Below are positions 1,056 to 56,727 of a DNA stretch of 64,000 bases, piece by piece. Under the pieces are notes generated by a model, which worked only from the letters and a program-made list of their open reading frames with translations, ran no database searches and was not told the origin of the DNA. The stretch lies in contig JABGPZ010000069.1 of the NCBI GenBank assembly GCA_018644725.1, forward strand, positions 148,238 through 212,237, given 5' to 3'. The translations under genes were made by a program, and so were the position numbers. The stretch comes from Phycisphaerales bacterium. GTDB taxonomy: Bacteria > Planctomycetota > Phycisphaerae > SM23-33. The first letter of the stretch is position 1; each line of letters starts with the position of its first letter.

Positions 1056-1129
<74 letters not shown>

Positions 1130-1177
1130 TACGGCAAGGCTGAAACGTCTTCGGATGGTTCCAGCCAACCCCATACT

Positions 1178-1250
1178 GGGGGCGTAGCTCAATTGGGAGA
1201 GCACCTGCTTTGCAAGCAGGATGTTGCAGGTTCGAGTCCTGTCGCCTCCA
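1178..1250 (+). tRNA. tRNA-Ala (anticodon TGC)
   Basis: GGGGGCGTAGCTCAATTGGGAGAGC ... anticodon loop TTTGCAA ... GGTTCGAGTCC. The G3:U70 acceptor pair characteristic of tRNA-Ala is present. Confidence 0.9.
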
Positions 1251-1767
1251 TGAAAACTCTATCGCGCTAGACCCCTGTTTACAGGGTGATTTGCACGAGA
1301 GCATGACTTTGAAAAAGAAAAGTTGGAAAACTTCACTTTTTTGAAAGAAAGCACTTGCAAGAGACAGAGCGAACGGCTATATTCTCCGCCCCGATGCGAA
1401 ACCGCAACGGAGCGAACAAGCGTCATCTGAGTGACGCGAAAAGAAAACTTCGAAAAAACGAAAAAAGAGCTTGCAACTTAGCGAGCGAATCAGTAAGATG
1501 TTTCACCCTTCGCTGATAACTCCGCGAAGGGAACACATAACCGACGAGCCGCAAGGGTTCGTGTAAGAAGCTGATTGACAATAGCATAGGATTAGAGAAC
1601 GTTCGAATTTCCAAAGAATTTGAACCGAGAACCAAATAAACGAGCGTTGAACACGTGCAAGCGTGTTCGATTGAACGCGCGCAAGCGTGTTCTAAAATGA
1701 ATCGATACAACTCTTATTATGAATGGCAGCTTGACTTGAAGCGGTCCGGAAACGGGCTTGCGACAAA

Positions 1768-4645
<2,878 letters not shown>

Positions 4646-4848
4646 TTGTCGTGTGCCCCCGGGCATACTGCTGCTGATCAAAATAAGACAATTTCGATTC
4701 AAGAGCTCGTTTTCTCATCTCTAATCCTATGCTTTTCATATTCATGTCAAGTCCCAAATGCATCCGAATACCGGGTGACTTTGATCCTTCGGGAAATGGA
4801 CTTGATGTAAAAATTTCTGAATGTTGTGCGACAGCGCAACATTCGGTT

Positions 4849-4957
4849 TGCCGGTGATGATACGTTAGGGGAAACACCTGTTCCCATACCGAACACAGAA
4901 GTGAAGTCCTAACGGCCGATGGTACTGCGATCGCGGGAGAGTAGGTGATCGCCGGTT
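4849..4957 (+). rRNA. rrf: 5S ribosomal RNA
   Basis: TGCCGGTGATGATACGTTAGGGGAAACACCTGTTCCCATACCGAACACAGAAGTGAAG...GGGAGAGTAGGTGATCGCCGG matches the 5S consensus. It lies ~200 nt downstream of the 23S. Confidence 0.9.
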
Positions 4958-17389: not shown

Positions 17390-17478
17390 TAGGCCCGAAG
17401 GGCCGTCAGTTGATAGCCGGGGGCGTAAGCCCCCGGTAGAGTTGCTAAATGAGTTGAGCCCCGAAGGGGCGGCAGAGA
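17390..17478. repeat. REP array (left flank of the RAYT): modules GGCCCGAAGGGCC, GCCGGGGGCGTAAGCCCCCGG, GCCCCGAAGGGGC
   Basis: Three GC-rich hairpin palindromes read directly from the sequence. The same modules recur at 17934-18092 (inverted), 31889-32080 and 47212-47400. Confidence 0.8.
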
Positions 17479-28657: not shown

Positions 28658-29485
28658 ATGAAGAATACACAACTGATCTCGCTTGCAACGTTACTGCTGT
28701 GCGCTACGGTTTCGTTGGCAAAGCCTCCAAAGAAACCTAAGGATCCGCCAGTGACACCGCCCACAGGGGATGGACTGATTCTCAAAGAGACGATCAAGTC
28801 CGGCTATGGTGACTATACTGGAACCGCGACCCTCGGTGGAATCTATACCCAGACGTTGGACCACATCGGGCCAACCCACCTTCACTTCAAGAAAGATTCC
28901 TACACGGGCCCGCTTTCCGAGGCGGCCTATGGCGATGGACACCATGTGGATCTGTTTACGGCGGGGATTTTTCAAGAGACCTACGAGACGGACATCGCTT
29001 ATGACGTGACGGCCTTGTCGGCCGGTCCGGTGGGCGGGGTAGAGAATGCTGCTTTGTTCCCCACGGGAATGGGCCAAGTCAAGGCCGATGCCTTGGGGAA
29101 ACTCTTCGGACTTTACTCGGCCGAAGCGGTTGCGCCAAAATCCGGCGACAGCACCGACCAAACGGCGGCATTCCAAGCGGCCGTCTGGGAAATTATTCAC
29201 GAAACGTCTGGCACCTATGGTCTTGGCGATGGCGAATTCCAGATCGCCGGTACCGGGGACTGGATGGACCTGGCGGACCACTATCTCTCGACGTTCGAGC
29301 AGGCCACCATCGCGGGTGAGTTGATGTTGCTTTCCAACGAGACCTATCAGGATTACATTGTGATGGGCGGTCAAGTGGCGGTCGAAGCGCCGTCGGCCCC
29401 GGCCGTGCCCGAACCAATCACGCTCGCATCGCTAGGGTTGTGCTTTCTTGGCGCGGGAGGTTACCTCCGCCGCCGGCTGACATAA
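28658..29485 (+). CDS. PEP-CTERM sorting-domain protein (paralog A); N-terminal domain of unknown family
   Basis: Signal peptide. C-terminal VPEPITLASLGLCFLGAGGYLRRRLT is the PEP motif + TM helix + Arg cluster typical of exosortase substrates. Paralogous to 30933..31730 (conserved blocks SYTGPL, AAFQAAVWEII, DYIVMG). Confidence 0.8.
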   Translation: MKNTQLISLATLLLCATVSLAKPPKKPKDPPVTPPTGDGLILKETIKSGYGDYTGTATLGGIYTQTLDHIGPTHLHFKKDSYTGPLSEAAYGDGHHVDLFTAGIFQETYETDIAYDVTALSAGPVGGVENAALFPTGMGQVKADALGKLFGLYSAEAVAPKSGDSTDQTAAFQAAVWEIIHETSGTYGLGDGEFQIAGTGDWMDLADHYLSTFEQATIAGELMLLSNETYQDYIVMGGQVAVEAPSAPAVPEPITLASLGLCFLGAGGYLRRRLT

Positions 29486-29503
29486 CCGTTGCAATGATGG
29501 GAC

Positions 29504-29534
29504 AAAACCGCAGGCTTGCCCTGCGGTTTTTTTG
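29504..29534 (+). terminator. Rho-independent terminator downstream of PEP-CTERM gene A
   Basis: AAACCGCAGGCTTGCCCTGCGGTTT hairpin followed by T7. Confidence 0.75.
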
Positions 29535-29575
29535 TGGTCAGACGAGTTCCGCCGAAGAACAAATTGGGCGAGTAC

Positions 29576-30532
29576 CTAGCCTCGCGGGTGAAATTTTTGG
29601 TGAATACTTTGGAGTCGTTTGGCATCGACGTGGGTGTAGATTTGGGTGGTGGCGACTGAAGCGTGCCCGAGCATGTCCTGGACACTGCGCAGGTCGGCGC
29701 CGCCGGCGAGGAGGCTGGTTGCGAAGCTATGGCGGAGAGTGTGGGGCGAGACCGATTTGACGATGCCGATCCGCTGTGCGTATCTCTTTACCATTGTGTA
29801 GACTGCAGTGCGGTGGAACGCTTTTCCGCGGTTGGACAGGAAAAGACGGTCCGGACTGACGGGCGTTTTCAGGCGCCGGTAGTCGCTTTCGAGATAATCG
29901 TTGACGGCCTGGACTGCCCGCGGCGCGACGGGAATCAGCCGTTCTTTGTTGCCTTTGCCGAGTACGCGGAGCAGCCCGTCGGTTTCGTCGAGGGCGCGGC
30001 GGGGAAGGTTGACCAGTTCGCTTACGCGCAGGCCCGTTGCATAAAAGAGGATCAGGATCGTCCGATCGCGCGTGGAAAATGGGTCCAGCTCGTTGTTGGG
30101 TGCGGCGAGCAGGTCGCGCAATTCGGTCTCGTTGAGTACCGTCGGCAGATAGCGTCCGCGCTTGGGCAGGTCGATGCTCGCGGATACGTCGCGGTCCTGA
30201 AGGTTTTGCAATACCAGAAATCGGCAGAACATACGAACCGATGCGAGGACGCGGGAAATCGTGGACACTTGCCAATCGCTCTGGGTGCGGATGTGGTGGA
30301 GGAAGGCTTCGACATCGGTCGCGCAGAGTTTGCGCAGATCACAACGGCCTCGCTCGTGGAGACATCCCAAGAACGTCAGCAGGTCGCCACGATAGGCGAT
30401 GCGGGTATTCTGCGAGCGGCCACACTCGATCAAAAGATAATCGAGAAATTCACGCAGCCAGCGGACCGCTTCAGACGGCAAATCGCAGAGGTCGGCTCTG
30501 GGAGGTAGTGTGGGCATGGTGGGGTTTGGCAA
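29576..30532 (-). CDS. Tyrosine recombinase, XerC/XerD family
   Basis: 318 aa. C-terminal catalytic region with R...HTLRHSFATSLLAGGADLRSVQDMLGHASVATTQIYTHV (R-H-R-Y signature). Confidence 0.85.
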   Translation of the reverse strand: MPNPTMPTLPPRADLCDLPSEAVRWLREFLDYLLIECGRSQNTRIAYRGDLLTFLGCLHERGRCDLRKLCATDVEAFLHHIRTQSDWQVSTISRVLASVRMFCRFLVLQNLQDRDVSASIDLPKRGRYLPTVLNETELRDLLAAPNNELDPFSTRDRTILILFYATGLRVSELVNLPRRALDETDGLLRVLGKGNKERLIPVAPRAVQAVNDYLESDYRRLKTPVSPDRLFLSNRGKAFHRTAVYTMVKRYAQRIGIVKSVSPHTLRHSFATSLLAGGADLRSVQDMLGHASVATTQIYTHVDAKRLQSIHQKFHPRG

Positions 30533-30932
30533 AGGCCTGGCGGTAGTGGCGGCATTGCTTATAGCAATCGCCGCAGCGGGTCATGACGTGGGTGAGATTG
30601 CGGAGGGTGATCTTCCCCGCGCAAGCCGAAGTGGGGTGTTCCAGGAAGGGGCACATGAATCCATTCTCCTTTGGCTGGTGGAAATCCGTTCCATCCCTTT
30701 TATCGGCGATTTTCACCCTCACTCATGAGGATTAATTCTATTTCTCAACTGGCGGGTTGGATCAATTGTATGGTGGAGGATTGGATTTTGCAGATCGCGG
30801 GGGGAGAAATAGTGATTAATTTCCGAAAAAAAATAATGAATCTTTCTTGAAATCCCGATAAATTGGGATAGAATGCAAATGTATTCCAGATCACAAGGCC
30901 CTTGGGCCTTTCTGGGAAAGAGGACAAAAACC

Positions 30933-31730
30933 ATGCGAATTCAAAATCCCATCCTGATGCTTGTGACGCTGCTGCTGGCAAGTACGGCGGTTTTTGCTGC
31001 GCCTGGTGGTAACAGCGGAGCCGACGGTGTGTCTCTCAAGTACGTCCCGGGTAGCAAGTTCAATGGAAAAGTCTATGTCAACGGCCAGACCTATGCCCAC
31101 GAGTTCGGCTACTTCGGCCCGATTCACATCCAGTTCAAAAATAATTCCTACACGGGCCCGCTTGCCGAGGCCGTCTACAATCAGGCCGACAGCAAGCGGC
31201 ATCTGAACGTTTTCGCGGCTGGGCTCTTCCAGCCTGCGCGCGAGTCGATGCAATTCTACACTATGCTCGACGTGGCCGATGGGCCGCTCGGTGGACCAGA
31301 AAACGCGACCCTGTTGCCCAATGGCATGGGCCCCGAAAAAGCACTCGCACTCGACAAACTGTTCGGGATGTATTACCCCGAGACCATCACTCACGAAGAC
31401 CCCGCTCACGGCGCGGCGTTCCAGGCTGCAATTTGGGAAATCATCTACGAAACCTCCGGCGAGTACAACGTCGGCGATGGTGACTTCATCATCGACGCCG
31501 AAGGCGAAGGCGACTGGTGGAATCTCGCGAACTACTATCTCGCGACCTACGAGGAAGCGACCCAACTGGCGAATCTGATGATCCTCACCAACGATACCTA
31601 TCAGGATTATATCGTCATGGGCACCGGCCAGAAAACGCCCATCACGCCCGTGCCCGAGCCGATCACGCTCGCTGGCCTGGGGCTGTGCGTTCTCGGCGCA
31701 AGTGGATATCTCCGCCGCCGGATGAGCTAG
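30933..31730 (+). CDS. PEP-CTERM sorting-domain protein (paralog B)
   Basis: Signal peptide MRIQNPILMLVTLLLASTAVFA. C-terminal PVPEPITLAGLGLCVLGASGYLRRRMS. Paralog of 28658..29485. Confidence 0.8.
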   Translation: MRIQNPILMLVTLLLASTAVFAAPGGNSGADGVSLKYVPGSKFNGKVYVNGQTYAHEFGYFGPIHIQFKNNSYTGPLAEAVYNQADSKRHLNVFAAGLFQPARESMQFYTMLDVADGPLGGPENATLLPNGMGPEKALALDKLFGMYYPETITHEDPAHGAAFQAAIWEIIYETSGEYNVGDGDFIIDAEGEGDWWNLANYYLATYEEATQLANLMILTNDTYQDYIVMGTGQKTPITPVPEPITLAGLGLCVLGASGYLRRRMS

Positions 31731-31888: not shown

Positions 31889-32080
31889 TGAGGCCCGAAG
31901 GGCCGGCCGTCGATAGCCGGGGGCGTAAGCCCCCGGACCAGTGCGAAAAGAAATCGAGCCCCGAAGGGGCGGCAGACATTGGACTCACGATTCTTCTGTC
32001 GCCCTTTCAGGGCTCACTTCGCCGGGCTGTCTACCGGGGGCTTACGCCCCCGGCTATCCACTGTCGCGCCTCCGGCGCTG
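31889..32080. repeat. REPIN-like inverted REP doublet with no transposase between the arms
   Basis: GAGGCCCGAAGGGCC, GATAGCCGGGGGCGTAAGCCCCCGG, GAGCCCCGAAGGGGCGGCAGA on one arm. GCCCTTTCAGGGC, CCGGGGGCTTACGCCCCCGGCTATC, CGCGCCTCCGGCGC on the other. Same modules as the RAYT flanks. Confidence 0.8.
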
Positions 32081-47211: not shown

Positions 47212-47400
47212 TGCCCTGAAAGGGCAACAGGGTTTAGCCGGGGGCGTAAGCCCCCGGTAGATGTGCCCCAAAACCAAGCCCTGAAAGGGCGAAAGAGAAA
47301 TGTAGGATGGGTGTTTCTTTCGCCCCTTCGGGGCTCTTTTTATTATGCTCATTCCGGGGGCTTACGCCCCCGGCTAAATCCTTTCGCGCCTCCGGCGCTT
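47212..47400. repeat. REPIN-like inverted REP doublet (no transposase) in the rpsB-ribF intergenic region
   Basis: GCCCTGAAAGGGC (twice), TTAGCCGGGGGCGTAAGCCCCCGG, TTCGCCCCTTCGGGGCTC, CCGGGGGCTTACGCCCCCGGCTAAATC, CGCGCCTCCGGCGC. Confidence 0.8.
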
Positions 47401-48579: not shown

Positions 48580-49549
48580 CGCCGCGTTTGCCGACCTTGT
48601 TTCCGCGGTCTCAGCCGCAGAGACTCTCGTCGTGGTTTCCCATGGCAACCCCGACGGCGACGCCATTGGCTCGGCTGGCGCACTCGTCGCCGCAGCGCGT
48701 CGTGCGGGCAAAACGGCCGTCGGCGTGTTCCCTGGCGGCGCGCCCGAGCGGCTTGCGTGGGTGGCCCCGGCCGAATTGTTTGCCGATGAATCGCAACTTT
48801 CCGCGCTGCTGGACTCGGCCGACTGCGTGATTGTGGTCGACACGTCCTCCGCCGTCCAGCTTGGCGACCTCGCATCGGCGATTACCGCGTGCAGCGACAA
48901 GCTGTTCGTCCTCGATCACCACACCCGGCCAGACCTTCCCGCGGCGTGTCTCGCGGTGGATACTACCGCCGGCGCGGCGGGGCTACTGGTGCTCGAGCTT
49001 TGCGAAACGCTCGGGTGGCCCGTCGATCTGCCTCTCGCCGAAATGCTCGCCGTCGCGATTCTCACCGACACGGGCTGGCTGCGCTTCAGCAACACCGATG
49101 CGCGCATTCTTGCGGCGATGGCGCGGCTGGTGGCGACGGGAATCACGCTCGACACGATCTATCAGGAAATTTACCAGCAGGAACGTCCGCAGCGTCTCGC
49201 GCTCAAGCAGCGCAGTCTGGATTCGCTGGTATGGCACGGCGGCGGCGCAATCGCGGTGATGACGCTCCGCGAATCGGACTTTGCCGAAACCGGCGCCACG
49301 AGCGATGAAACCGAGGGATTGGTGAACGAACCCTTCGTCGTTGGCGCGGCAGAGGTCTCGATCCTCCTCGTCGAAGCGCCCGGCCTGACGCGCGTGTCTC
49401 TTCGGAGTCGCGGGGCGGTGGACGTGGCGGACCTTGCCCGTAAGTTTGGCGGCGGCGGACACGTTCGCGCGGCGGGCATCAAAACGCCCGAGCCTCTCGA
49501 CGCATTCTGCACGACGTTGTTGGCGGCAATTGAGAAAAAAGGTCTTTAG
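48545..49549 (+). CDS. nrnA: DHH-family phosphoesterase (NrnA-like bifunctional oligoribonuclease / pAp phosphatase)
   Basis: DHH motifs (VSHGNPDGDAIGS, VVDTS, LDHH) and the DHHA1 GGGH motif (KFGGGGHVRAAG). Overlaps the ribF 3' end. Confidence 0.7.
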   Translation: MSPMSDPSSNFSAAFADLVSAVSAAETLVVVSHGNPDGDAIGSAGALVAAARRAGKTAVGVFPGGAPERLAWVAPAELFADESQLSALLDSADCVIVVDTSSAVQLGDLASAITACSDKLFVLDHHTRPDLPAACLAVDTTAGAAGLLVLELCETLGWPVDLPLAEMLAVAILTDTGWLRFSNTDARILAAMARLVATGITLDTIYQEIYQQERPQRLALKQRSLDSLVWHGGGAIAVMTLRESDFAETGATSDETEGLVNEPFVVGAAEVSILLVEAPGLTRVSLRSRGAVDVADLARKFGGGGHVRAAGIKTPEPLDAFCTTLLAAIEKKGL

Positions 49550-49606
49550 CATTTTCCGGATCGGTGGTATACTCTTTTTACACCTTCTTCGACAAAGGAT
49601 TGCATC

Positions 49607-51307
49607 ATGGACCAGCCCGCCGACAAACGAGTCTCACCCAAATCGATCTTGATGGGAGTTGGGATTTTGGCGGTGTTTGCCTGGTGCTATCATCGTACGT
49701 TTTATGAAATGTGGTTGCGTTGGTTCCCCGCATGGAAATATAGCCAGTGGTCTGTGTATGACCGCCTGTTTGAGGGGGAAGGGTACTACACCCACGGCCC
49801 GCTGGTGGTTCTGATTTCGGCGCTGATTGCCGTTATGCTGCTTCGCTTTACGAAGATCCGCACGCAGCCCTCGCCCAAATTCGGCGCGGTGGTGCTGATC
49901 GGGAGTGTGATGGTCCATTGGCTCGCGGCATTGGCGCAGGTGAATTTCCTCAGCGCGATGACCATTCCCTCGACGCTCGCGGGCGGCGTGTTGATCCTCT
50001 GGGGACGCGACGCGCTGAAGCGGTTGGCGTTTCCGCTTCTGTTTTTGTTCTTCATGGTCCCGATGCCGGAAGTGCTGATCGCGGGGCTGAATTTTGAGCT
50101 GAAAATGTTCACGGTCGATGGCTCGGTGAAGCTCTTTACATTCCTGGGCGGCATTGCCGAACGTCTCGACAATGAAGTCGTTCTTCTGGGCGACAAGACC
50201 CTGGTGGTCGCGAACGTTTGCAACGGTCTGCGCTCGCTGATCAGTCTGCTGGCGTTCGGGGTACTCTATGCCTACGTGTGCAAGGTGCGCGGTCTGTGGC
50301 GGTGGGTGTTGCTGTTTGCCTCGCTGCCCGTGGCCTTGGTGTGCAACGCGATCCGCATCATGAGCTTGATTCTCGTGGCCGACGTTGTCAGCGTTGAGGT
50401 CGCTTCAGGCTGGTACCACGACCTGTCGGGCGTGATGCTCTATCCGCTGGCGATTCTCATTCTCTTCTCGTTCGAGGCGTTCATCCTTTGGACGCACGCG
50501 CGCCTCAAGCATCCCATTGTGGTTCGGCCGCTCTTTGACGGCCTGCGGCGCACCGATGACGATCTCGGCCAGGCCCATGCGATGGTGCGTGGATTTGCCA
50601 CGCGCCGGGCGCTGGTGTTGCTGGTGTTGGTCGCGGGCGCAGCGGGGGGGACGAAGTGGCTGCATTCGACGGAAAAATCGTATGACCGCGACTCCGCACG
50701 CCTAAGCCAGCTCGTTACCAAGACCCTGACGATTGGGGGGGGAGAATGGGCCAGCGAAGATCTGGACCTCGACAAGAAAACCCTCGCCATTCTCCAGAAC
50801 CCTGACTATCTCCGTCGCCGCTATGCGTCCATGGGACGCGGGACGATGGAATTGATGATCCTCTATAGCCGCAACAACCGCAAGGGCAATCACCCGCCCG
50901 ATCTCTGCATCGAAGGCAGCGGTCAGGAAGTCTTCAAGAAGCAGTCCGTCGAGGTCCGCACGAACGGAGGCCAGAGTGTGTGGTGTCAGGAACTCCAGGC
51001 CAAGGAGAGTCCCAAGCATCGCCGCGTCGGCGAACCGCGCAAGCGATTTGTTCACCTGTACACCTACCGCGCAGGCGAGATCTACACCAACAGCTTCTGG
51101 CGACAGCAGTGGACGATTTTCCTCAACTCGCTCCTTGGCCGAGACAGCCGGGGAATGTTGGTCTATGTCGTTGTCCCCCTGAGTGACCGACCCGAGGCGT
51201 CTCGCGCTCAAAGCCAGCAGCTCCTCGCGGCGGTGTTGGATGAATTGGAACACAATCTCCCACGTCTGGACGTGGAAGCTGGAAGGAAGAACCCCGATGA
51301 AAAGTAG
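49607..51307 (+). CDS. Exosortase (XrtA/EpsH family) fused to a C-terminal EpsI-like domain
   Basis: 8-TM N-terminal domain with conserved exosortase blocks (NGLRSLISLLAFG..., CNAIRIMSLIL; active-site Cys, Arg and Asn candidates). C-terminal ~200 aa resembles the exosortase-associated EpsI (DUF3485) family. Confidence 0.75.
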   Translation: MDQPADKRVSPKSILMGVGILAVFAWCYHRTFYEMWLRWFPAWKYSQWSVYDRLFEGEGYYTHGPLVVLISALIAVMLLRFTKIRTQPSPKFGAVVLIGSVMVHWLAALAQVNFLSAMTIPSTLAGGVLILWGRDALKRLAFPLLFLFFMVPMPEVLIAGLNFELKMFTVDGSVKLFTFLGGIAERLDNEVVLLGDKTLVVANVCNGLRSLISLLAFGVLYAYVCKVRGLWRWVLLFASLPVALVCNAIRIMSLILVADVVSVEVASGWYHDLSGVMLYPLAILILFSFEAFILWTHARLKHPIVVRPLFDGLRRTDDDLGQAHAMVRGFATRRALVLLVLVAGAAGGTKWLHSTEKSYDRDSARLSQLVTKTLTIGGGEWASEDLDLDKKTLAILQNPDYLRRRYASMGRGTMELMILYSRNNRKGNHPPDLCIEGSGQEVFKKQSVEVRTNGGQSVWCQELQAKESPKHRRVGEPRKRFVHLYTYRAGEIYTNSFWRQQWTIFLNSLLGRDSRGMLVYVVVPLSDRPEASRAQSQQLLAAVLDELEHNLPRLDVEAGRKNPDEK

Positions 51308-54300
51308 AACAGCCCTGATTCTTGTTTTGGCGGTACTCCTCGTGGCGGGGTCGGTGGTGGGCTATCTCTGGCACCGGCGCAACCAGGGGGAATATCTCCG
51401 TGGGCGCGCGCAGTTGAAAATGCGTACAGGCAGACGCGACGAAGCACAACTTCTGATCAAAAAATACATCGGGAAATATCCCGACCTCTGGCAGGGCTAT
51501 TACACCCAGGGCAACATTTTCGCGCGCTTTGGGGAATATGACAGTGCGCGCAAAAGTTTCGACATTTCGCTTTCCAAGGCTCCCAAGGACAAGCATCAAA
51601 TCATTCAGGTTTCCTTGGCGCGGACCTATTCCATGCCGGCGGTGCAGACGCTCAATTCCACGCGGTACAAGATGGAAATTGCCGCGATGGACCAAGGCAT
51701 TTCATTGCTGGAGCGTTCGAACGAAATTCTCGAAGGGGCCCTGGACCCGGCCACAGCAGACCGCGCCAAGGACCAGGAATTGCTTTCTCTTCTCGCGCAA
51801 AATTACAAACGCATCGGGGCCTACCACGCCATGCGCGCCGCGCGCTATCAGATGAAGCTGGTGGTCTCTAAGTCTGCCGAAGACCTCTTGCGGATTGCGA
51901 CCAATCGTGCCGCCAACAAGGCCAGTCAGGCCGCCTCCGTCACTGCCAATACCAAGGCGCTCGACCTGTTCATGCGTCTTCTGGCCATCGCCCCTGATTC
52001 CAGCAAACAGGCCATTGCGGCCGTTGAACTGGCCGTCCTTCAGCGTAGCGAAACCAAGCTCAATGCGCTCGCCAAACAGATCGAAGCGATTCCCGGCCTC
52101 CCCGAGGCCAAGTCGCAACTCTGGATGTATCAACTCTCGCGCATGTCGTCCAGGCTTTCTCGAAAAGAACGCGATGTGTTTTTCAAGCAGGTCGAATCCA
52201 AACTCCAGACTCTGCACAAGACCTATCCCGATTCGACGCAAGTTCTGGTCGCCCTTTCGCAGCTTGCGATTCAGGATCACCGCCATGACCGAGCCCAGGA
52301 AATTCTCACGGCCGCGATCGGGGCCGCCGAAGCCCGTCACGCCACGCCGGATCGCGAAATCATGCGGACCTATGCGTCGCTGTTGCGCGCTCAGGGAAAC
52401 TACAAACAAGCGTACAACGTTCTTTCGGATCTGCGCGACCGCTATCCTCGCTGGGCCGACGTCCAGTGCAGCTATGCCCTGGTGGCGGAGAAATGTGGCA
52501 AGGAGGGGATCGCGCGCAGTGCGATGCGACTGACGACCGAACTGATGCCCTATCATGCCCGCGCACGTCAATACATGGCCGAGATGCTTTCGCGCCAGGG
52601 CTTTCATGATCGCGCACTGGATGAGGCAAAATTGATGTATGAAGGGCATCCTTCTTCGCCCGATGCCGTGACGTTGGTTGTGACGATGGCGATTCGCGCA
52701 GAAAAAATTGCGGCGGCCGAAACGGTCCTCACCCAGGCGATGGCACTGCATGCGGATCGGCCAAACTTGATGCTGGCGGTGTCGCGTTGCTATCGTCAGA
52801 TCGGCCAGGAGGGCATGGCGCGCAAGGCTGCGGGCATGGTACGAACGAACACCGTGGCAGGGGACTATGCCGAAGAGATTCTCGCGATTCGTGCGTTGCT
52901 CGGCGAGAAACGCTTTCTGCAAGCAGACTCCAAAATTCAGGCACTGCTCCAAACGTACCCCGATGATGAACAACTCCAGTTGCTCCAGGCCACGCTTCTT
53001 GCACAACGAGGGCGGACGTTTTTGGCGATCCCGATCTATCAGGACCTCGTTACCCACGGTAGCGATCCACAGAAATATCGTCAGCTTCTGGCCGCAGCAG
53101 CGTTCGACATCGGCCAGTTTTCTCGGGCGCGAAGCGTTGCGGAACAAGTGATTCAGGACGATCCTACGAACATTCCCATGGCGATGTTGCTACAGCAGAT
53201 TTCTGTCATTGAGGGCAAGGCGTCCGGTCCCCAGCCGGTCCCGATCAAGCCCGTGCAAATGGTCGTGCGATTGCTCCAGGCCGGCAAGACCACCGAGGCG
53301 CTGGAGTTTTGCAGACGCAGTGCGCCCGACGCCAAAGACCCGACGGTCTGGGCCTTGTTTGCTGAGGCGCAAAAGGCAGTGGGCGACCTTCAGGGTGCGT
53401 CTCTATCCTATGCCAAGGCCATCACGCTCCGCCCGCAGCGGCTGAGCTATTATCAGGAATTCCTGCGTGTGCGGATGCTGTATCAGCCGCTCAAAAGTGC
53501 CGTGTTGGAGTTTGTGCGTGTCCCCAATGCGGATACCGCGCTGGTTCACATTGCCCACGCCCATGCTCTTACACAGCGCGGAGATCTGACGGGTGCCCTT
53601 CGCGAGTATCGCTTTGTGCAGGCCAACAAACGCGCCCGGGCCGACGCGAAACTTCTCGCGCGGTATTATAACGCGGATTTGCTGTTGCGTGCCAATCAAC
53701 CCCAAGCCGCCCTCGCGCTCCTTACGGATGTCAAAGATGCTGGTGCGCTCGCTCAGCGTATGGAGTTGCTTCGTGTTGCGGTGTTGCTCCGGCTCGAAAA
53801 ACTTCCCGAGGCCTACAAAGCCCTCGATGCGTTCGCGGTGCGGATGCTTCAGGAACGCGACGCTCATCAAGTTGTGCAGATCGTGGGGCTGTGGCTGAAA
53901 ATCAATCAGTTTGAAAAAGCGCTGACACTTGCCCGACAGCTCGGCGAGATCGTCCCCCGGGCCGTCGAACCGTTGATTCTCCAAGGCGAAGCCCTCGCGC
54001 GGATGGGAAAACCGCTCGAAGCGGAGGCTGCACTTGTGGCGGCCAGGCAACTCCAACCGTCCAACCAAGCCGTCCACATCGCACTCGCCCAAAGCCAAGC
54101 CCGCCGTCAGAAGTGGGACACGGCGCTTGCGACATTGAAAGCATTTGAGGCCACCGGAGAGACCGGCTCGCTTTTGGGGCAGCTCGAACGGGCGAATCTC
54201 TATTCTCGGTGGGGACTCGCGCGCGAGGCCACCGACGTGATCGAGACGCTCCTGACGACCAAGCAATCCCTGCCCCCGCAGGCCTACTATTTCTGTGCGC

Positions 54301-55808
54301 GGGCCTATCTCGCCCTCGGCGATCCTGCCCGTGCCCGCAAGGCGGTCGAGGCGATCAGCTCGGTCAGTCCGTACTATGTTCAAGGGTGGTTGCTGCTTGC
54401 TGCGGCAAATCAGGATCGCAACGCTCGTATCGCGATCTATCGTGAAATTCTCAAACATCGCCCCAGCGACGTCACAGCCGTTGGCGGTGAGATGATGGCG
54501 CTGATTTCCCTGAAGCAGTTCGCTCAGGCCTCGGAGCGGTTCGATGCATTCGTCCACACCTATCGCTCGGAAGGGCGCTGGCCGATGAATCTGGGGTCGT
54601 TGGCCTTGGCCGCCGCAATGGAAAATCGATTCCACAATGCCACCCCCAAGGCGATTGCGCTGGCAGAGACCATGAGCAAGGGCTATCCCCAAACTCACTG
54701 GCCGATGCGTCTGCTGCTGTTGCAGTATGTGGCCGGGAATGATGCGTGGATCGCGAGTCGTCTTGCCGTGCCGAAGGATGTCTACGAGGTCGTTCTGCGG
54801 ATGCTTTCGGAGTTGCGTGCCGGAAAGGGGAAAGTCCCTTCGACCCTGCGGCTAGGCTGGGAAGAACTTGCAGAAAAATTGCCCAAGGAATTTGGCCCCT
54901 ATCTCGTCGAACCGATGAGGGCACTGCTGAATCCCGCCGGCGCAAGCATTCCCCAGGGGGATGCTCGAGCGATGCTCGAATCCATATTGGCCGCTCGCTC
55001 GAAAATGCCCGGGATGGTCGAGATTCTCCGTGAGCGCTGGCTTGCGTCGCCGACGTCGCCGCAACTGGCAGAAATGCTCTGGAAACTCTCCCCGACGACC
55101 GAAACGCTCGCCGCGATCATCAAGTCCTATCCCGACCGGACCAGTGGGTTTTATCGCCGTCTTGCGGCCGAATCTGCCCTCCGTCGCGCCCACATCACCG
55201 GAGCCCCGCGGGACTATGCCAAGGCGATTACGCTCTTCGAAGCCCTCTCCAAAGAAGCGGGCGGCAAAGCGGTTTCGCTCGAGCTGATCTGCGCACGGAC
55301 CTATGAACAGGCGGGTCAGCTCGCCAAGGCAGAAACGCGCTATCGTGCCATCTACGCCCGCACGAAGGCAGCGGCGGTGGGGAACAATCTGGCCTTTCTG
55401 CTTGTGACCAAACCCAACCCGTCCTTCGCAGAATTGCGCGAGGCCGAGCTGCTCTCCAAGGCATCGTTCGCAGCGTCGCCCGGTGACCCGGCCGTGCAGG
55501 ATACGCGCGGATGGGTCTTGCTGAGTCAGGGCAAAACCTTCCCGGCGCTTGCGCTGTTGCGCCATGCGGCGCTCGGCCTTTCCCAAAGCGTTCAGATGCA
55601 ATGTCACCTTGGCGCGGCGTCCGAGGCGACGGGAAAACGCGATTGGGCCCGTCGGCACTATCAGGCCGCCATCGACCTCGGCCGAGAACTACAGACCAAA
55701 GTCGACAAGGCCCGCAAAGAGGGGACCCTCCTCGGTTGGGATGTTGACCCGGCCGACCTCGCCGCCATCCAAACCGCCCATGCCAAACTCAAGGCACTCG
55801 ACAAATGA
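51297..55808 (+). CDS. Giant TPR-repeat protein (~1500 aa), PrsT-like (PEP-CTERM-system TPR protein), N-terminal TM anchor
   Basis: Start overlaps the exosortase stop. N-terminal TM helix. TPR-like repeats throughout. Position immediately downstream of the exosortase, as for PrsT in known PEP-CTERM loci. Confidence 0.7.
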   Translation: MKSRTALILVLAVLLVAGSVVGYLWHRRNQGEYLRGRAQLKMRTGRRDEAQLLIKKYIGKYPDLWQGYYTQGNIFARFGEYDSARKSFDISLSKAPKDKHQIIQVSLARTYSMPAVQTLNSTRYKMEIAAMDQGISLLERSNEILEGALDPATADRAKDQELLSLLAQNYKRIGAYHAMRAARYQMKLVVSKSAEDLLRIATNRAANKASQAASVTANTKALDLFMRLLAIAPDSSKQAIAAVELAVLQRSETKLNALAKQIEAIPGLPEAKSQLWMYQLSRMSSRLSRKERDVFFKQVESKLQTLHKTYPDSTQVLVALSQLAIQDHRHDRAQEILTAAIGAAEARHATPDREIMRTYASLLRAQGNYKQAYNVLSDLRDRYPRWADVQCSYALVAEKCGKEGIARSAMRLTTELMPYHARARQYMAEMLSRQGFHDRALDEAKLMYEGHPSSPDAVTLVVTMAIRAEKIAAAETVLTQAMALHADRPNLMLAVSRCYRQIGQEGMARKAAGMVRTNTVAGDYAEEILAIRALLGEKRFLQADSKIQALLQTYPDDEQLQLLQATLLAQRGRTFLAIPIYQDLVTHGSDPQKYRQLLAAAAFDIGQFSRARSVAEQVIQDDPTNIPMAMLLQQISVIEGKASGPQPVPIKPVQMVVRLLQAGKTTEALEFCRRSAPDAKDPTVWALFAEAQKAVGDLQGASLSYAKAITLRPQRLSYYQEFLRVRMLYQPLKSAVLEFVRVPNADTALVHIAHAHALTQRGDLTGALREYRFVQANKRARADAKLLARYYNADLLLRANQPQAALALLTDVKDAGALAQRMELLRVAVLLRLEKLPEAYKALDAFAVRMLQERDAHQVVQIVGLWLKINQFEKALTLARQLGEIVPRAVEPLILQGEALARMGKPLEAEAALVAARQLQPSNQAVHIALAQSQARRQKWDTALATLKAFEATGETGSLLGQLERANLYSRWGLAREATDVIETLLTTKQSLPPQAYYFCARAYLALGDPARARKAVEAISSVSPYYVQGWLLLAAANQDRNARIAIYREILKHRPSDVTAVGGEMMALISLKQFAQASERFDAFVHTYRSEGRWPMNLGSLALAAAMENRFHNATPKAIALAETMSKGYPQTHWPMRLLLLQYVAGNDAWIASRLAVPKDVYEVVLRMLSELRAGKGKVPSTLRLGWEELAEKLPKEFGPYLVEPMRALLNPAGASIPQGDARAMLESILAARSKMPGMVEILRERWLASPTSPQLAEMLWKLSPTTETLAAIIKSYPDRTSGFYRRLAAESALRRAHITGAPRDYAKAITLFEALSKEAGGKAVSLELICARTYEQAGQLAKAETRYRAIYARTKAAAVGNNLAFLLVTKPNPSFAELREAELLSKASFAASPGDPAVQDTRGWVLLSQGKTFPALALLRHAALGLSQSVQMQCHLGAASEATGKRDWARRHYQAAIDLGRELQTKVDKARKEGTLLGWDVDPADLAAIQTAHAKLKALDK

Positions 55809-55860
55809 CCACCCACATGCTCACATTTGACGTGGAAGAATTTTCAAGGAGCCAACTCGC

Positions 55861-56727
55861 GTGACCACCCACATGCTCACATTTGACGTGGAGGAATTCT
55901 ATCAGGTCGAAGCGGCCCGTCGTGCCGGGGTTTCGCCCCAGATGTGGGCCGTGTACGATTCTCGACTCGATGTGGGTCTGGATTCGATTTGCGAATTGTT
56001 GGATGCAGCCGACGTGCGTGCGACGTTTTTTATTCTCGGCGAGGTCGCCCGTCGTCGCGGCGATTGGGTAAAGCGCCTGGCTGCGGCGGGGCACGAAATC
56101 GCCTCTCACGGCATGACGCACACGATGCTCACACAGCTTTCACCCGAGGCGGCTGCGGCCGAGTTGCGCGATTCCAAAGCGCTGCTCGAAGAGTTGTCCG
56201 GTGAGGCGGTTTTGGGATTCCGCGCGCCGACATTCTCGATCAATCACACCAACGCATGGGCCATCGACGCGCTCGCGGACGCGGGCTATGCGTATGACTC
56301 GTCGATCTTTCCTGTCCGCCACGACCGATACGGCGTGCCCGACGCGCCGCGCGGTGCGTTTCGCTGTGTGGGGCCCGAGGGTGGTGCGGTGCTGGAGATT
56401 CCGCCGCTGACCAGACGGGTTTGTGGCATGACGATGCCGATGGGCGGCGGGGGCTATTTTCGCCTCGTGCCGCTGTGGTGGTTTGCCTCGGCGATCAAGG
56501 CCGCCGCGCGCAGGAACGATCCCGCGATGCTCTATTTCCACCCGTGGGAATTTGATGCTGACCAGCCCGAGTTACCCGGCCTGAGCGGCCTGCGGCGTTG
56601 GCGTCATCGTGTGGGGCTCGCGAAGAACGCGAAGAAACTCCTCAAACTCCTTACGAAATTTTCATTCGGCCCGGTCCGCGATCAGCTCGATGGGTTGAAG
56701 CAGACTGACGTCGATTTTACGTTGTAA
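55861..56727 (+). CDS. Polysaccharide deacetylase (carbohydrate esterase 4), PEP-CTERM-locus subfamily
   Basis: N-terminus LTFDVEEFYQVEAA matches the DVEDYFQV start of XrtA-associated deacetylases. Also HEIASHGMTH and RAPTFS. GTG start overlapping an upstream mini-ORF stop. Confidence 0.75.
   Translation: MTTHMLTFDVEEFYQVEAARRAGVSPQMWAVYDSRLDVGLDSICELLDAADVRATFFILGEVARRRGDWVKRLAAAGHEIASHGMTHTMLTQLSPEAAAAELRDSKALLEELSGEAVLGFRAPTFSINHTNAWAIDALADAGYAYDSSIFPVRHDRYGVPDAPRGAFRCVGPEGGAVLEIPPLTRRVCGMTMPMGGGGYFRLVPLWWFASAIKAAARRNDPAMLYFHPWEFDADQPELPGLSGLRRWRHRVGLAKNAKKLLKLLTKFSFGPVRDQLDGLKQTDVDFTL

What the first reader, a model, noticed from the sequence alone, without database searches (positions are those of the whole stretch)
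49607..56727. Compact exosortase system: XrtA-like exosortase/EpsI fusion, ~1500-aa TPR protein and locus-type polysaccharide deacetylase in one translationally coupled operon
The three genes overlap or abut. The exosortase stop overlaps the TPR start (ATGAAAAGTAG). The TPR stop is chained to the deacetylase through ATGA/GTGA overlaps. The exosortase carries a fused EpsI-like domain. The TPR protein is roughly 1.6x the length of a typical PrsT and is anchored by a single N-terminal TM helix rather than a lipobox. Only two cognate PEP-CTERM cargo genes are visible, and they lie ~18 kb away (28.6-31.7 kb). A minimal sortase-like surface-protein system of this shape in a PVC-type genome would be worth characterising, particularly its cargo and whether the deacetylase modifies an EPS or the cargo glycans.
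Basis: partly seen in the sequence, partly recalled or inferred. Interest (0 to 1): 0.7.

Follow-up and report, generated by a model that had tools for sequence, protein, structure and literature searches.

The report
Planctomycete exosortase–TPR–deacetylase gene cassette

Summary
Three same-strand genes abut or overlap at 49607-56727.
- 49607-51307 is an exosortase (PF09721, E 4.9e-50) fused to an EpsI domain. It passes the general exosortase and EpsI models but no named subtype: XrtA 131 bits against a cut-off of 208, XrtD 193 against 400.
- 51297-55808 is a 1503-aa TPR protein. Its best match is PrsT, below cut-off (134 against 312). It has an N-terminal TM anchor and no lipobox.
- 55861-56727 passes the XrtA-system deacetylase equivalog (294 against 276).

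The ATGAAAAGTAG and ATGA/GTGA junctions are real. The second comes from a 56-bp tandem duplication that creates a 19-codon mini-ORF.

The source is a Phycisphaerales MAG. I examined 32 species-level relatives with at least 40% exosortase identity and enough downstream DNA. In 27 a ≥1400-aa ORF follows the exosortase, and 30 have the deacetylase downstream. The long TM-anchored TPR is therefore normal for the clade.

About half of these relatives carry further XrtA-system markers upstream (FemAB-like protein, O-antigen-ligase-like protein, glycosyltransferase, CoA ligase). "Minimal system" therefore describes this locus, not necessarily the genome.

Two paralogous VPEP-tailed cargo genes lie in the window. 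The genome-wide cargo count cannot be determined.

Verdict: an unnamed, lineage-typical form of the PEP-CTERM/exosortase system, of modest interest.

The parts
49546..49573 (+). Promoter-like site (TTAGCA-16-TATACT with a TG extension) in the 57-nt gap between the DHH phosphoesterase gene and the exosortase start
   Evidence: This is a consensus match only: 5 sites were found in the scanned region against 3.0 expected, so it is not significant on its own.
49607..51307 (+). Exosortase-EpsI fusion protein, 566 aa. Exosortase domain at about residues 21-292 (nt 49667-50482), a further TM helix at about residues 333-354, and a periplasmic EpsI domain at residues 337-548 (nt 50615-51250).
   Evidence: HMMs. 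C205, R209, R250 and H271 invariant in 22 homologues, plus R425, H429, P431 and C434 in EpsI. (hydropathy). (AF2 model, pLDDT 86.3, pTM 0.82).
51297..55808 (+). 1503-aa TPR solenoid protein with one N-terminal TM anchor. It is PrsT-like, and its C-terminal module (residues 1290-1455) aligns to PrsT model positions 735-894 of 899.
   Evidence: (TM anchor conserved, no Cys). (colinear alignment of 36 homologues; the N-terminus and residues 1320-1440 are most conserved).
55805..55864 (+). 19-codon mini-ORF created by a 56-bp tandem duplication of the deacetylase 5' end (repeat copies 55806-55842 and 55862-55898). It links the TPR stop to the deacetylase start through ATGA and GTGA overlaps.
55861..56727 (+). 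XrtA-system polysaccharide deacetylase (CE4 domain plus DUF3473), 288 aa from the GTG at 55861 or 284 aa from the ATG at 55873. No signal peptide.
   Evidence: TIGR03006, 294 bits against 276.2. (PF01522, PF11959). (CE4 motifs FDVE, SHG..H, FRAP and HPWE conserved in 36 sequences).
28658..29485 (+). PEP-CTERM cargo candidate 1: 275 aa, with a signal peptide and the tail VPEPITLASLGLCFLGAGGYLRRRLT.
   Evidence: PF07589, 22.0 bits against 20.7.. (rare family, 8 hits).
30933..31730 (+). PEP-CTERM cargo candidate 2: 265 aa, a paralogue 47% identical to candidate 1, with the tail VPEPITLAGLGLCVLGASGYLRRRMS.
   Evidence: PF07589, 20.0 bits, just under the 20.7 cut-off..

Best explanation

Shown:
- Gene 1 is an exosortase-family polytopic membrane protein with the family's invariant Cys/Arg/His residues. 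It is fused through an extra TM helix to a periplasmic EpsI domain.
- Gene 2 is a roughly 1500-aa PrsT-related TPR solenoid held in the membrane by one N-terminal helix.
- Gene 3 is a CE4 deacetylase of the XrtA-system family that lacks a signal peptide.
- The three genes are contiguous or overlapping, and this order is conserved across species.
- PEP-CTERM proteins with canonical VPEP-TM-RRR tails are encoded in the same genome.

Inferred from established knowledge of the family (Haft 2006, PMC1569441; Haft 2023 preprint, 10.1101/2023.06.07.544157):
- Cargo is exported by Sec and held in the inner membrane by its C-terminal helix and Arg cluster.
- The exosortase Cys attacks at the PEP motif and removes the helix, probably by transpeptidation to an unknown acceptor.

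My own inference, unproven:
- The TPR protein projects into the periplasm. Distant relatives (L057, L063) carry a lipobox instead, which places the body outside the cytoplasm.
- It acts there as a scaffold or chaperone that couples cargo hand-off to the envelope or polysaccharide.
- The cytoplasmic deacetylase de-N-acetylates a sugar on a nucleotide- or lipid-linked precursor of the associated polysaccharide, possibly creating the free amine that serves as acceptor.

The exosortase is not XrtA by the curated test. It is an unnamed subtype whose accessory genes are of XrtA-system type.
For: - HMM results are.
- Invariant catalytic residues were found in 22 homologues.
- Hydropathy shows eight or more TM segments plus a linker TM. 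The AF2 model is confident.
- At least 150 homologous protein clusters have the same two-domain architecture, all from Planctomycetota/Phycisphaerae where named.
- 78 species-level genome loci were retrieved. Of 32 with at least 40% identity and at least 6.2 kb downstream, 27 have a >=1400-aa ORF next, 30 have the deacetylase downstream and 23 have exactly the window's geometry.
- The TM-anchor motif (M-K/R-R-R, about 20 hydrophobic residues, then WWYLHRNSG..LLARAELALRA) is conserved.
- Relatives carry XrtA-system markers that pass curated cut-offs: FemAB-like TIGR03019 at 320 bits against 260, and PEP_O_lig_1 TIGR03097 at 231 against 188.
- The window holds two canonical PEP-CTERM tails. About 11 more lie in the flanks of relatives.
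- The deacetylase catalytic motifs are conserved.
Against: - No experiment exists for any member of this clade, and every relative found is a MAG.
- The exosortase fails every subtype-specific model and the TPR fails PrsT, so functional transfer from XrtA/PrsT is by analogy.
- Charge flanking the TPR TM helix is ambiguous: K2 and R4 lie before it and four Arg within 15 residues after it. Periplasmic placement therefore rests on homology to lipoprotein forms.
- No EPS genes, PrsK/PrsR or sigma-54 sites were found in the window.
- Only two cargo genes are visible, and these were not shown to depend on this exosortase.
- The 56-bp duplication could not be checked in an independent assembly.
Confidence: 0.78

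Rival explanations
1. It is simply a divergent true XrtA orthologue. The locus would then be an ordinary XrtA/PEP-CTERM EPS system whose other genes lie elsewhere, with nothing subtype-specific about it.
For: For the catalytic domain alone, XrtA is the top subtype model (131.9 bits). The deacetylase passes the XrtA-system equivalog. Relatives carry the XrtA-system FemAB-like and O-ligase-like markers above cut-off. The cargo tails are classical PEP-CTERM.
Against: The XrtA score is 76 bits below the curated cut-off and is statistically tied with XrtV and XrtD. The EpsI fusion, the 1500-aa TM-anchored TPR and the fixed trio order are conserved clade-wide. The TPR fails PrsT (134 against 312). 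No PrsK/PrsR gene is adjacent.
Confidence: 0.3
2. The TPR protein is a regulatory component, as PrsT was originally proposed to be together with PrsK/PrsR, rather than a periplasmic scaffold for sorting. The tight coupling would only set stoichiometry with the exosortase.
For: PrsT is the best NCBIfam hit, and the C-terminal module aligns to the PrsT C-terminus. Haft 2006 defined PrsT by co-occurrence with the PrsK/PrsR regulators.
Against: No histidine kinase or sigma-54 activator lies next to the cassette in the window or recurs in the 78 loci. No sigma-54 promoter enrichment was found. Some relatives carry two tandem ~1600-aa copies, which is more typical of structural proteins.
Confidence: 0.25
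3. The cassette is mainly a polysaccharide modification and export module, and the exosortase homologue does not process the two VPEP-tailed proteins in this window.
For: The deacetylase is the best-conserved partner (50-58% identity). The cargo genes lie 18 kb away and belong to a rare family.
Against: The exosortase Cys/Arg/His residues are invariant. PEP-CTERM tails recur in the relatives' genomes. Dispersed cargo genes are typical of these systems according to Haft 2006.
Confidence: 0.08
4. It is a decaying remnant of a larger EPS locus and is no longer functional.
For: The flanks are housekeeping genes (ribF, a DHH phosphoesterase, an oxidoreductase, a methyltransferase). A duplication scar sits at the TPR/deacetylase junction.
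Against: All three ORFs are intact with conserved catalytic motifs. The same bare trio with unrelated flanks occurs in many species. The duplication leaves a full-length deacetylase ORF.
Confidence: 0.03

Closest known systems
XrtA / PEP-CTERM system (EpsH-EpsI of Methylobacillus sp. 12S; TIGR03109 with accessory families TIGR03006, TIGR03019, TIGR03097 and PrsT TIGR02917)
   Same: Both have an exosortase-family catalytic domain with Cys/Arg/His and an EpsI module. The deacetylase is of the same equivalog. Relatives carry FemAB-like and O-antigen-ligase-like markers. The cargo tails are classical PEP-CTERM, and the TPR is PrsT-related.
   Different: The exosortase scores 131 bits against the 208 cut-off. 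EpsI is fused rather than encoded by a separate downstream gene. The TPR is about 1500 aa and TM-anchored, not about 900 aa with a lipoprotein signal. No PrsK/PrsR was found. The trio stands alone among housekeeping genes here.
XrtD (VPLPA-CTERM-specific exosortase, TIGR04152) and XrtW (NF038142)
   Same: Both show the same two-domain exosortase+EpsI architecture over the full length, and they give the highest raw bit scores (193 and 148).
   Different: The scores are less than half of the cut-offs (400 and 425). The cargo signal here is VPEP, not VPLPA. The high scores reflect the fused EpsI region; for the catalytic domain alone XrtD ranks behind XrtA and XrtV.
PrsT (PEP-CTERM regulatory system TPR lipoprotein, Haft 2006)
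   Same: It is the top HMM hit, and the C-terminal module (NNLAFLL...DT.GW...) aligns to PrsT model positions 735-895. It is associated with an exosortase.
   Different: It is 1.6x longer, scores below cut-off (134 against 312), has a TM anchor instead of a lipobox, and is encoded directly downstream of the exosortase rather than with PrsK/PrsR.
Sortase A / LPXTG system of Gram-positive bacteria
   Same: It is a functional analogy: a C-terminal tripartite signal (motif, TM helix, basic cluster) and a Cys/Arg/His enzyme, with transpeptidation to an amine acceptor proposed. FemAB-type enzymes build the acceptor in Gram-positives, and FemAB-like genes accompany this system in relatives.
   Different: The fold is unrelated. 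The enzyme is polytopic and membrane-embedded. The acceptor is unknown.

Membership tests
Exosortase/archaeosortase superfamily (PF09721, TIGR02602, TIGR04178) | HMM score above the curated cut-offs | tested here: met
   PF09721 170.7 bits against 25.7; TIGR02602 130.8 against 105.55; TIGR04178 49 against 23.
Exosortase/archaeosortase superfamily (PF09721, TIGR02602, TIGR04178) | Polytopic membrane protein with about 8 TM helices | tested here: met
   Hydropathy segments between residues 9 and 294. The AF2 model shows long helices there.
Exosortase/archaeosortase superfamily (PF09721, TIGR02602, TIGR04178) | Conserved Cys, Arg and His putative catalytic residues | tested here: met
   C205, R209/R250 and H271 are invariant in 22 homologues of 35-66% identity. 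They lie within the TIGR04178 signature region, residues 201-288.
Exosortase/archaeosortase superfamily (PF09721, TIGR02602, TIGR04178) | Co-occurrence with PEP-CTERM-type cargo in the same genome (more than two instances by Haft's rule) | tested here: inconclusive
   Two tails in the 64-kb window. The genome beyond the window was unavailable.
XrtA (TIGR03109) | HMM score of at least 208 bits | tested here: not met
   131.3 bits for the full protein and 131.9 for the catalytic domain alone. Relatives L046 and L057 score 111 and 92 bits.
XrtA (TIGR03109) | Embedded in an EPS locus with XrtA-system accessory genes | tested here: inconclusive
   The deacetylase TIGR03006 is adjacent and passes. 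No other marker is in the window. About half of the relatives have FemAB-like, O-ligase-like, glycosyltransferase or CoA-ligase genes within 10 kb.
XrtD (TIGR04152) | HMM score of at least 400 bits and VPLPA-CTERM cargo | tested here: not met
   193.4 bits. The tail scan, which included PLPA, found only VPEP tails.
EpsI (TIGR02914 / PF11984) | HMM score above cut-off; domain fused to or adjacent to an exosortase | tested here: met
   TIGR02914 51.6 bits against 42.8; PF11984 70.5 against 26.1, covering residues 337-548.
PrsT (TIGR02917) | HMM score of at least 312.2 bits | tested here: not met
   134.3 bits in 5 stretches. Clade relatives score 197-269 bits.
PrsT (TIGR02917) | Lipoprotein signal sequence | tested here: not met
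   No Cys in or after the N-terminal hydrophobic segment in the window or in most of the close relatives inspected. A lipobox occurs only in the distant L057 and L063.
PrsT (TIGR02917) | Co-occurrence with PrsK/PrsR and sigma-54 sites upstream of cargo | tested here: inconclusive
   No sigma-54 consensus enrichment (55 matches against 71 expected). No kinase or activator is among the recurrent neighbours. The whole genome was not available.
XrtA-system polysaccharide deacetylase (TIGR03006) | HMM score of at least 276.2 bits, CE4 domain plus DUF3473, next to an exosortase | tested here: met
   294 bits over model positions 3-268 of 272. PF01522 and PF11959 both match. Catalytic motifs are conserved.
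PEP-CTERM sorting domain (PF07589) | C-terminal PEP motif, TM helix and basic cluster; HMM score of at least 20.7 bits | tested here: met
   Cargo 1 scores 22.0 bits. Cargo 2 scores 20.0, marginally below, but its tail matches cargo 1 at 21 of 26 positions.

The most novel reading that the evidence does not exclude
The Xrt-EpsI fusion, the ~1500-aa TM-anchored PrsT-like solenoid and the cytoplasmic CE4 deacetylase together define a distinct, still unnamed Planctomycetota exosortase subtype. In it the deacetylase is not an incidental EPS gene. It makes the acceptor by generating a free sugar amine on a lipid-linked glycan, which resolves the exosortase acyl-enzyme. The extra-long membrane-anchored TPR bridges the unusually wide planctomycetal periplasm to deliver cargo. 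If true, this irreducible trio would be the cleanest system in which to identify the long-unknown acceptor of exosortase transpeptidation.
Probability: 0.15. Interest if true: 0.6.

Novelty: new member of a known kind. Interest (0 to 1): 0.3.

Why it matters
Exosortases are widespread, but their chemistry is unresolved. The acceptor is unknown, as are the roles of EpsI and PrsT, and no solved structure matched here. This work shows that one large Planctomycetota clade keeps only three genes rigidly together: exosortase-EpsI, a long TPR protein and the deacetylase. That points to the partners most likely to act directly with the enzyme. It also suggests a curated subtype model is missing from NCBIfam. 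On its own, the window adds an annotation and a clade-level synteny rule, not a new mechanism.

Tried and rejected
- Solved structures: a profile search of PDB sequences gave no hit at E <= 1. Foldseek of the AF2 model against PDB gave nothing at E <= 0.001, only weak chance-level matches of the EpsI part to START/Mog1-like folds.
- AFDB search: the library was not available.
- Sigma-54 promoter consensus (as upstream of proteobacterial cargo): 55 matches against 71 expected, none convincingly placed upstream of either cargo gene. The two cargo upstream regions share no clear motif.
- Independent check of the 56-bp duplication: the only other record with the deacetylase is the source JGI contig, for which no DNA was returned. 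ENA contig L001 ends inside the TPR gene.
- Haft 2012 (archaeosortases/exosortases): the paper is not held in the library.
- XrtA-system markers elsewhere in the window: tblastn with FemAB-like, O-ligase-like, glycosyltransferase, CoA-ligase and acetyltransferase queries found none. It found only an unrelated PDZ protein at 10.3-12.4 kb.
- CAAX-protease or other TM families for gene 1: rejected, since only exosortase and EpsI models match.
- Method caution: my greedy ORF clustering produced antisense artefacts in these GC-rich loci. Synteny counts therefore rely on tblastn.
Full report
**Observation**

The exosortase stop TAG (51305-51307) lies inside ATGAAAAGTAG, whose ATG (51297) starts MKSRTALILVLAVLLVAGSVVGYLW. 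Public gene callers disagree on the TPR start, one using 51297 and the other 51240. In homologues the TM helix begins 9-95 nt after the exosortase stop, which favours 51297.

At the other junction the TPR stop TGA (55806-55808) overlaps an ATG (55805). This ATG opens a 19-codon ORF that repeats the deacetylase N-terminus (MTTHMLTFDVEEF...). The mini-ORF ends in a TGA that overlaps the deacetylase GTG at 55861. The "chain" is the product of a tandem duplication: two 37-nt copies, 1 mismatch, 56-nt spacing. I could not check the duplication in an independent assembly.

**What the genes are**

Gene 1 matches Exosortase_EpsH (PF09721, E 4.9e-50) over residues 21-289 and DUF3485/EpsI (PF11984, E 2.1e-19) over residues 337-548.

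In NCBIfam it passes the general exosortase model (TIGR02602, 130.8 bits against 105.55), the exosortase/archaeosortase signature (TIGR04178) and EpsI (TIGR02914, 51.6 against 42.8). It passes none of the subtype models:

| Subtype | Bits | Cut-off |
|---|---|---|
| XrtD | 193 | 400 |
| XrtW | 148 | 425 |
| XrtA | 131 | 208 |
| XrtV | 124 | 313 |

Scanned without the EpsI half, the catalytic domain ranks XrtA (131.9), XrtV (126.9), then XrtD (119.2). "XrtA-like" is therefore fair as a description but fails as membership.

An alignment of 22 homologues (35-66% identity) has C205, R209, R250 and H271 invariant. In the EpsI part it also has an invariant R425/H429/P431/C434 patch. Cys/Arg/His is the triad proposed for this family (Haft preprint 10.1101/2023.06.07.544157).

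Hydropathy and a confident AlphaFold model (pLDDT 86.3, pTM 0.82) show a helical membrane bundle. This is followed by a further TM helix (about residues 333-354) and an alpha/beta domain. Nothing in the PDB resembles the protein by sequence or fold.

Gene 2 contains only TPR-class Pfam hits. Its best NCBIfam hit is PrsT, below cut-off (134.3 bits against 312.2). Residues 1290-1455 align to the PrsT C-terminus, model positions 735-894 of 899.

Gene 3 passes the equivalog model for the XrtA-system polysaccharide deacetylase (TIGR03006, 294 bits against 276.2). It has the CE4 and DUF3473 domains and conserved CE4 motifs. The model aligns from residue 6 and there is no hydrophobic N-terminus, so the enzyme should be cytoplasmic.

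**Surroundings**

Upstream lie rpsB, tsf, ribF and a DHH/DHHA1 phosphoesterase. Downstream are convergent genes for an FAD-dependent oxidoreductase, a methyltransferase, an esterase, an acyl-CoA dehydrogenase and ETF.

A promoter-like TTAGCA-16-TGnTATACT sits in the 57-nt gap before the exosortase. It is not statistically compelling.

No EPS genes, PrsK/PrsR or other XrtA-system markers occur in the 64 kb.

Two paralogous proteins (47% identity) have signal peptides and near-identical VPEPITLA...GYLRRR tails, at 28658-29485 and 30933-31730. A six-frame tail scan gave only one other match in the window, the C-terminus of the DHH gene (ends 49549), which has no PEP-CTERM tail. They belong to a rare, lineage-restricted family with 8 database hits.

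**Origin and relatives**

An identical partial protein is named as coming from a Phycisphaerales MAG. The window matches a 175-kb JGI metagenome contig.

At least 150 protein clusters share the two-domain architecture at E <= 1e-95. All that carry a name come from Planctomycetota/Phycisphaerae.

A scan of species-representative genomes returned 78 loci, all MAGs. Among the 32 with at least 40% exosortase identity and at least 6.2 kb of downstream sequence:
- 27 have a >=1400-aa ORF immediately after the exosortase.
- 30 have the deacetylase (50-58% identity) downstream.
- 23 show exactly the window's spacing.

Several loci show TPR-homologous sequence extending about 8-9.5 kb between the exosortase and the deacetylase, which suggests two tandem ~1600-aa TPR genes.

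The TPR proteins align colinearly over their full length. The strongest conservation is at the N-terminus and at residues about 1320-1440. Their N-termini share M-(K/R)-R-R, about 20 hydrophobic residues without Cys, then WWYLHRNSG..LLARAELALRA. Only the distant loci L057 and L063 have a lipobox.

The long, TM-anchored TPR is therefore the clade norm, not a peculiarity of this genome.

About half of the close relatives carry additional genes within 10 kb upstream:
- a FemAB-family XrtA/PEP-CTERM-associated protein (TIGR03019, 320 bits against 260);
- the exosortase-A-associated O-glycosylation-ligase-like protein (TIGR03097, 231 against 188);
- a TIGR03088-like glycosyltransferase;
- an AMP-dependent ligase.

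In the more distant Phycisphaeraceae group (exosortase identity below 40%) the order is FemAB-like, exosortase, a ~985-aa TPR protein, then a trypsin-like protease. That group has no adjacent deacetylase.

PEP-CTERM tails (VPEP/IPEP, TM helix, RRR) occur sporadically in the relatives' flanks, about 11 in 1.26 Mb.

**How it most likely works**

Shown: the domain identities, the conserved catalytic residues, the conserved gene order and the presence of canonical cargo tails.

Inferred from the literature on the family (PMC1569441):
- Cargo is exported and tethered by its C-terminal helix.
- The membrane-embedded Cys enzyme cleaves at the PEP motif, possibly transferring the protein to an acceptor.

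My own inference:
- The TPR body is periplasmic, because distant relatives replace the TM anchor with a lipoprotein signal. Flanking charges are ambiguous.
- It serves as a scaffold or chaperone.
- The cytoplasmic deacetylase modifies a sugar of a nucleotide- or lipid-linked precursor, not exported cargo glycans.

A more speculative idea also fits the data. The deacetylase stays locked to the exosortase, and FemAB-like genes accompany the system in relatives. Both observations are compatible with these enzymes building an amine acceptor, by analogy with sortase and lipid II. I rate that at about 0.15.

**Comparison and novelty**

The system works like an XrtA-type PEP-CTERM system and shares its accessory families. 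The exosortase fails the XrtA test, the TPR fails both the PrsT score and the lipoprotein feature, and no PrsK/PrsR gene is linked.

Exosortase-EpsI fusions have been known since 2006. Literature searches found no description of this Planctomycetota trio.

I file it as a new member of a known kind: an unnamed, lineage-typical subtype. "Compact" applies to this locus. Whether the system as a whole is minimal cannot be told from 64 kb. Interest is modest (0.3).

Noticed in passing
window 17391-17436(-)/17974-18019(+); 31891-31936(-)/32034-32079(+); 47212-47257(-)/47354-47399(+): Six Rfam Acido-Lenti-1 (RF01687) matches at 46-55 bits form three inverted pairs in intergenic regions. An alignment shows each is part of a larger palindromic array of GC-rich hairpins (GGCCCGAAGGGCC, CCGGGGGCGTAAGCCCCCGG, GAGCCCCGAAGGGGC). 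The family is described from Acidobacteria and Lentisphaerae, whereas this window comes from a Phycisphaerales MAG. One pair follows cargo gene 2, and another lies between rpsB and ribF, about 2.2 kb upstream of the exosortase. They could be REP- or MITE-like elements or bidirectional terminators.
   Followed up: partly
window 55805-55898: A 56-bp tandem duplication of the deacetylase 5' end creates a 19-codon decoy ORF between the TPR stop and the deacetylase start. The second copy has GTG where the first has ATG. It could not be verified in an independent assembly.
   Followed up: partly
window 1056-4957: tRNA-Ile(GAT), tRNA-Ala(TGC), 23S and 5S rRNA genes lie together with no 16S upstream. 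The preceding gene (7-819) encodes a chagasin-family inhibitor/YscW-like protein. This indicates a split rRNA operon that keeps the spacer tRNAs with the 23S gene.
   Followed up: partly
window 28658-31730: The two paralogous PEP-CTERM genes, both on the + strand, flank an oppositely oriented XerD/XerC-like tyrosine recombinase at 29576-30532(-). It scores 310 bits against 279 for PRK00283 and 316 against 329.6 for XerD. Whether it is the housekeeping Xer recombinase or is linked to the duplication of the cargo gene was not examined.
   Followed up: no
L044, L046, L052, L053, L061, L064, L070 (about 8.5-15.7 kb in each locus): A sister arrangement occurs in Phycisphaeraceae MAGs: FemAB-like (TIGR03019), exosortase-EpsI, a ~985-aa TPR protein and a trypsin/HtrA-like serine protease. 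An acetyltransferase and a GT4 glycosyltransferase lie upstream, and no deacetylase is adjacent.
   Followed up: partly
L008, L013, L020, L023, L025, L026 (downstream of the exosortase): tblastn matches to the window's TPR protein extend over about 8-9.5 kb between the exosortase and the deacetylase, or to the end of the locus in L026 where no deacetylase was found. This suggests two tandem ~1600-aa TPR genes, that is, a duplication of the TPR component.
   Followed up: no
window residues R425, H429, P431, C434 of the 49607-51307 product (nt ~50879-50908): The EpsI domain carries an invariant R..GxHPPxxC patch across 22 homologues, including an invariant Cys. No function is known for EpsI. This patch would be the obvious target for mutagenesis.
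   Followed up: no
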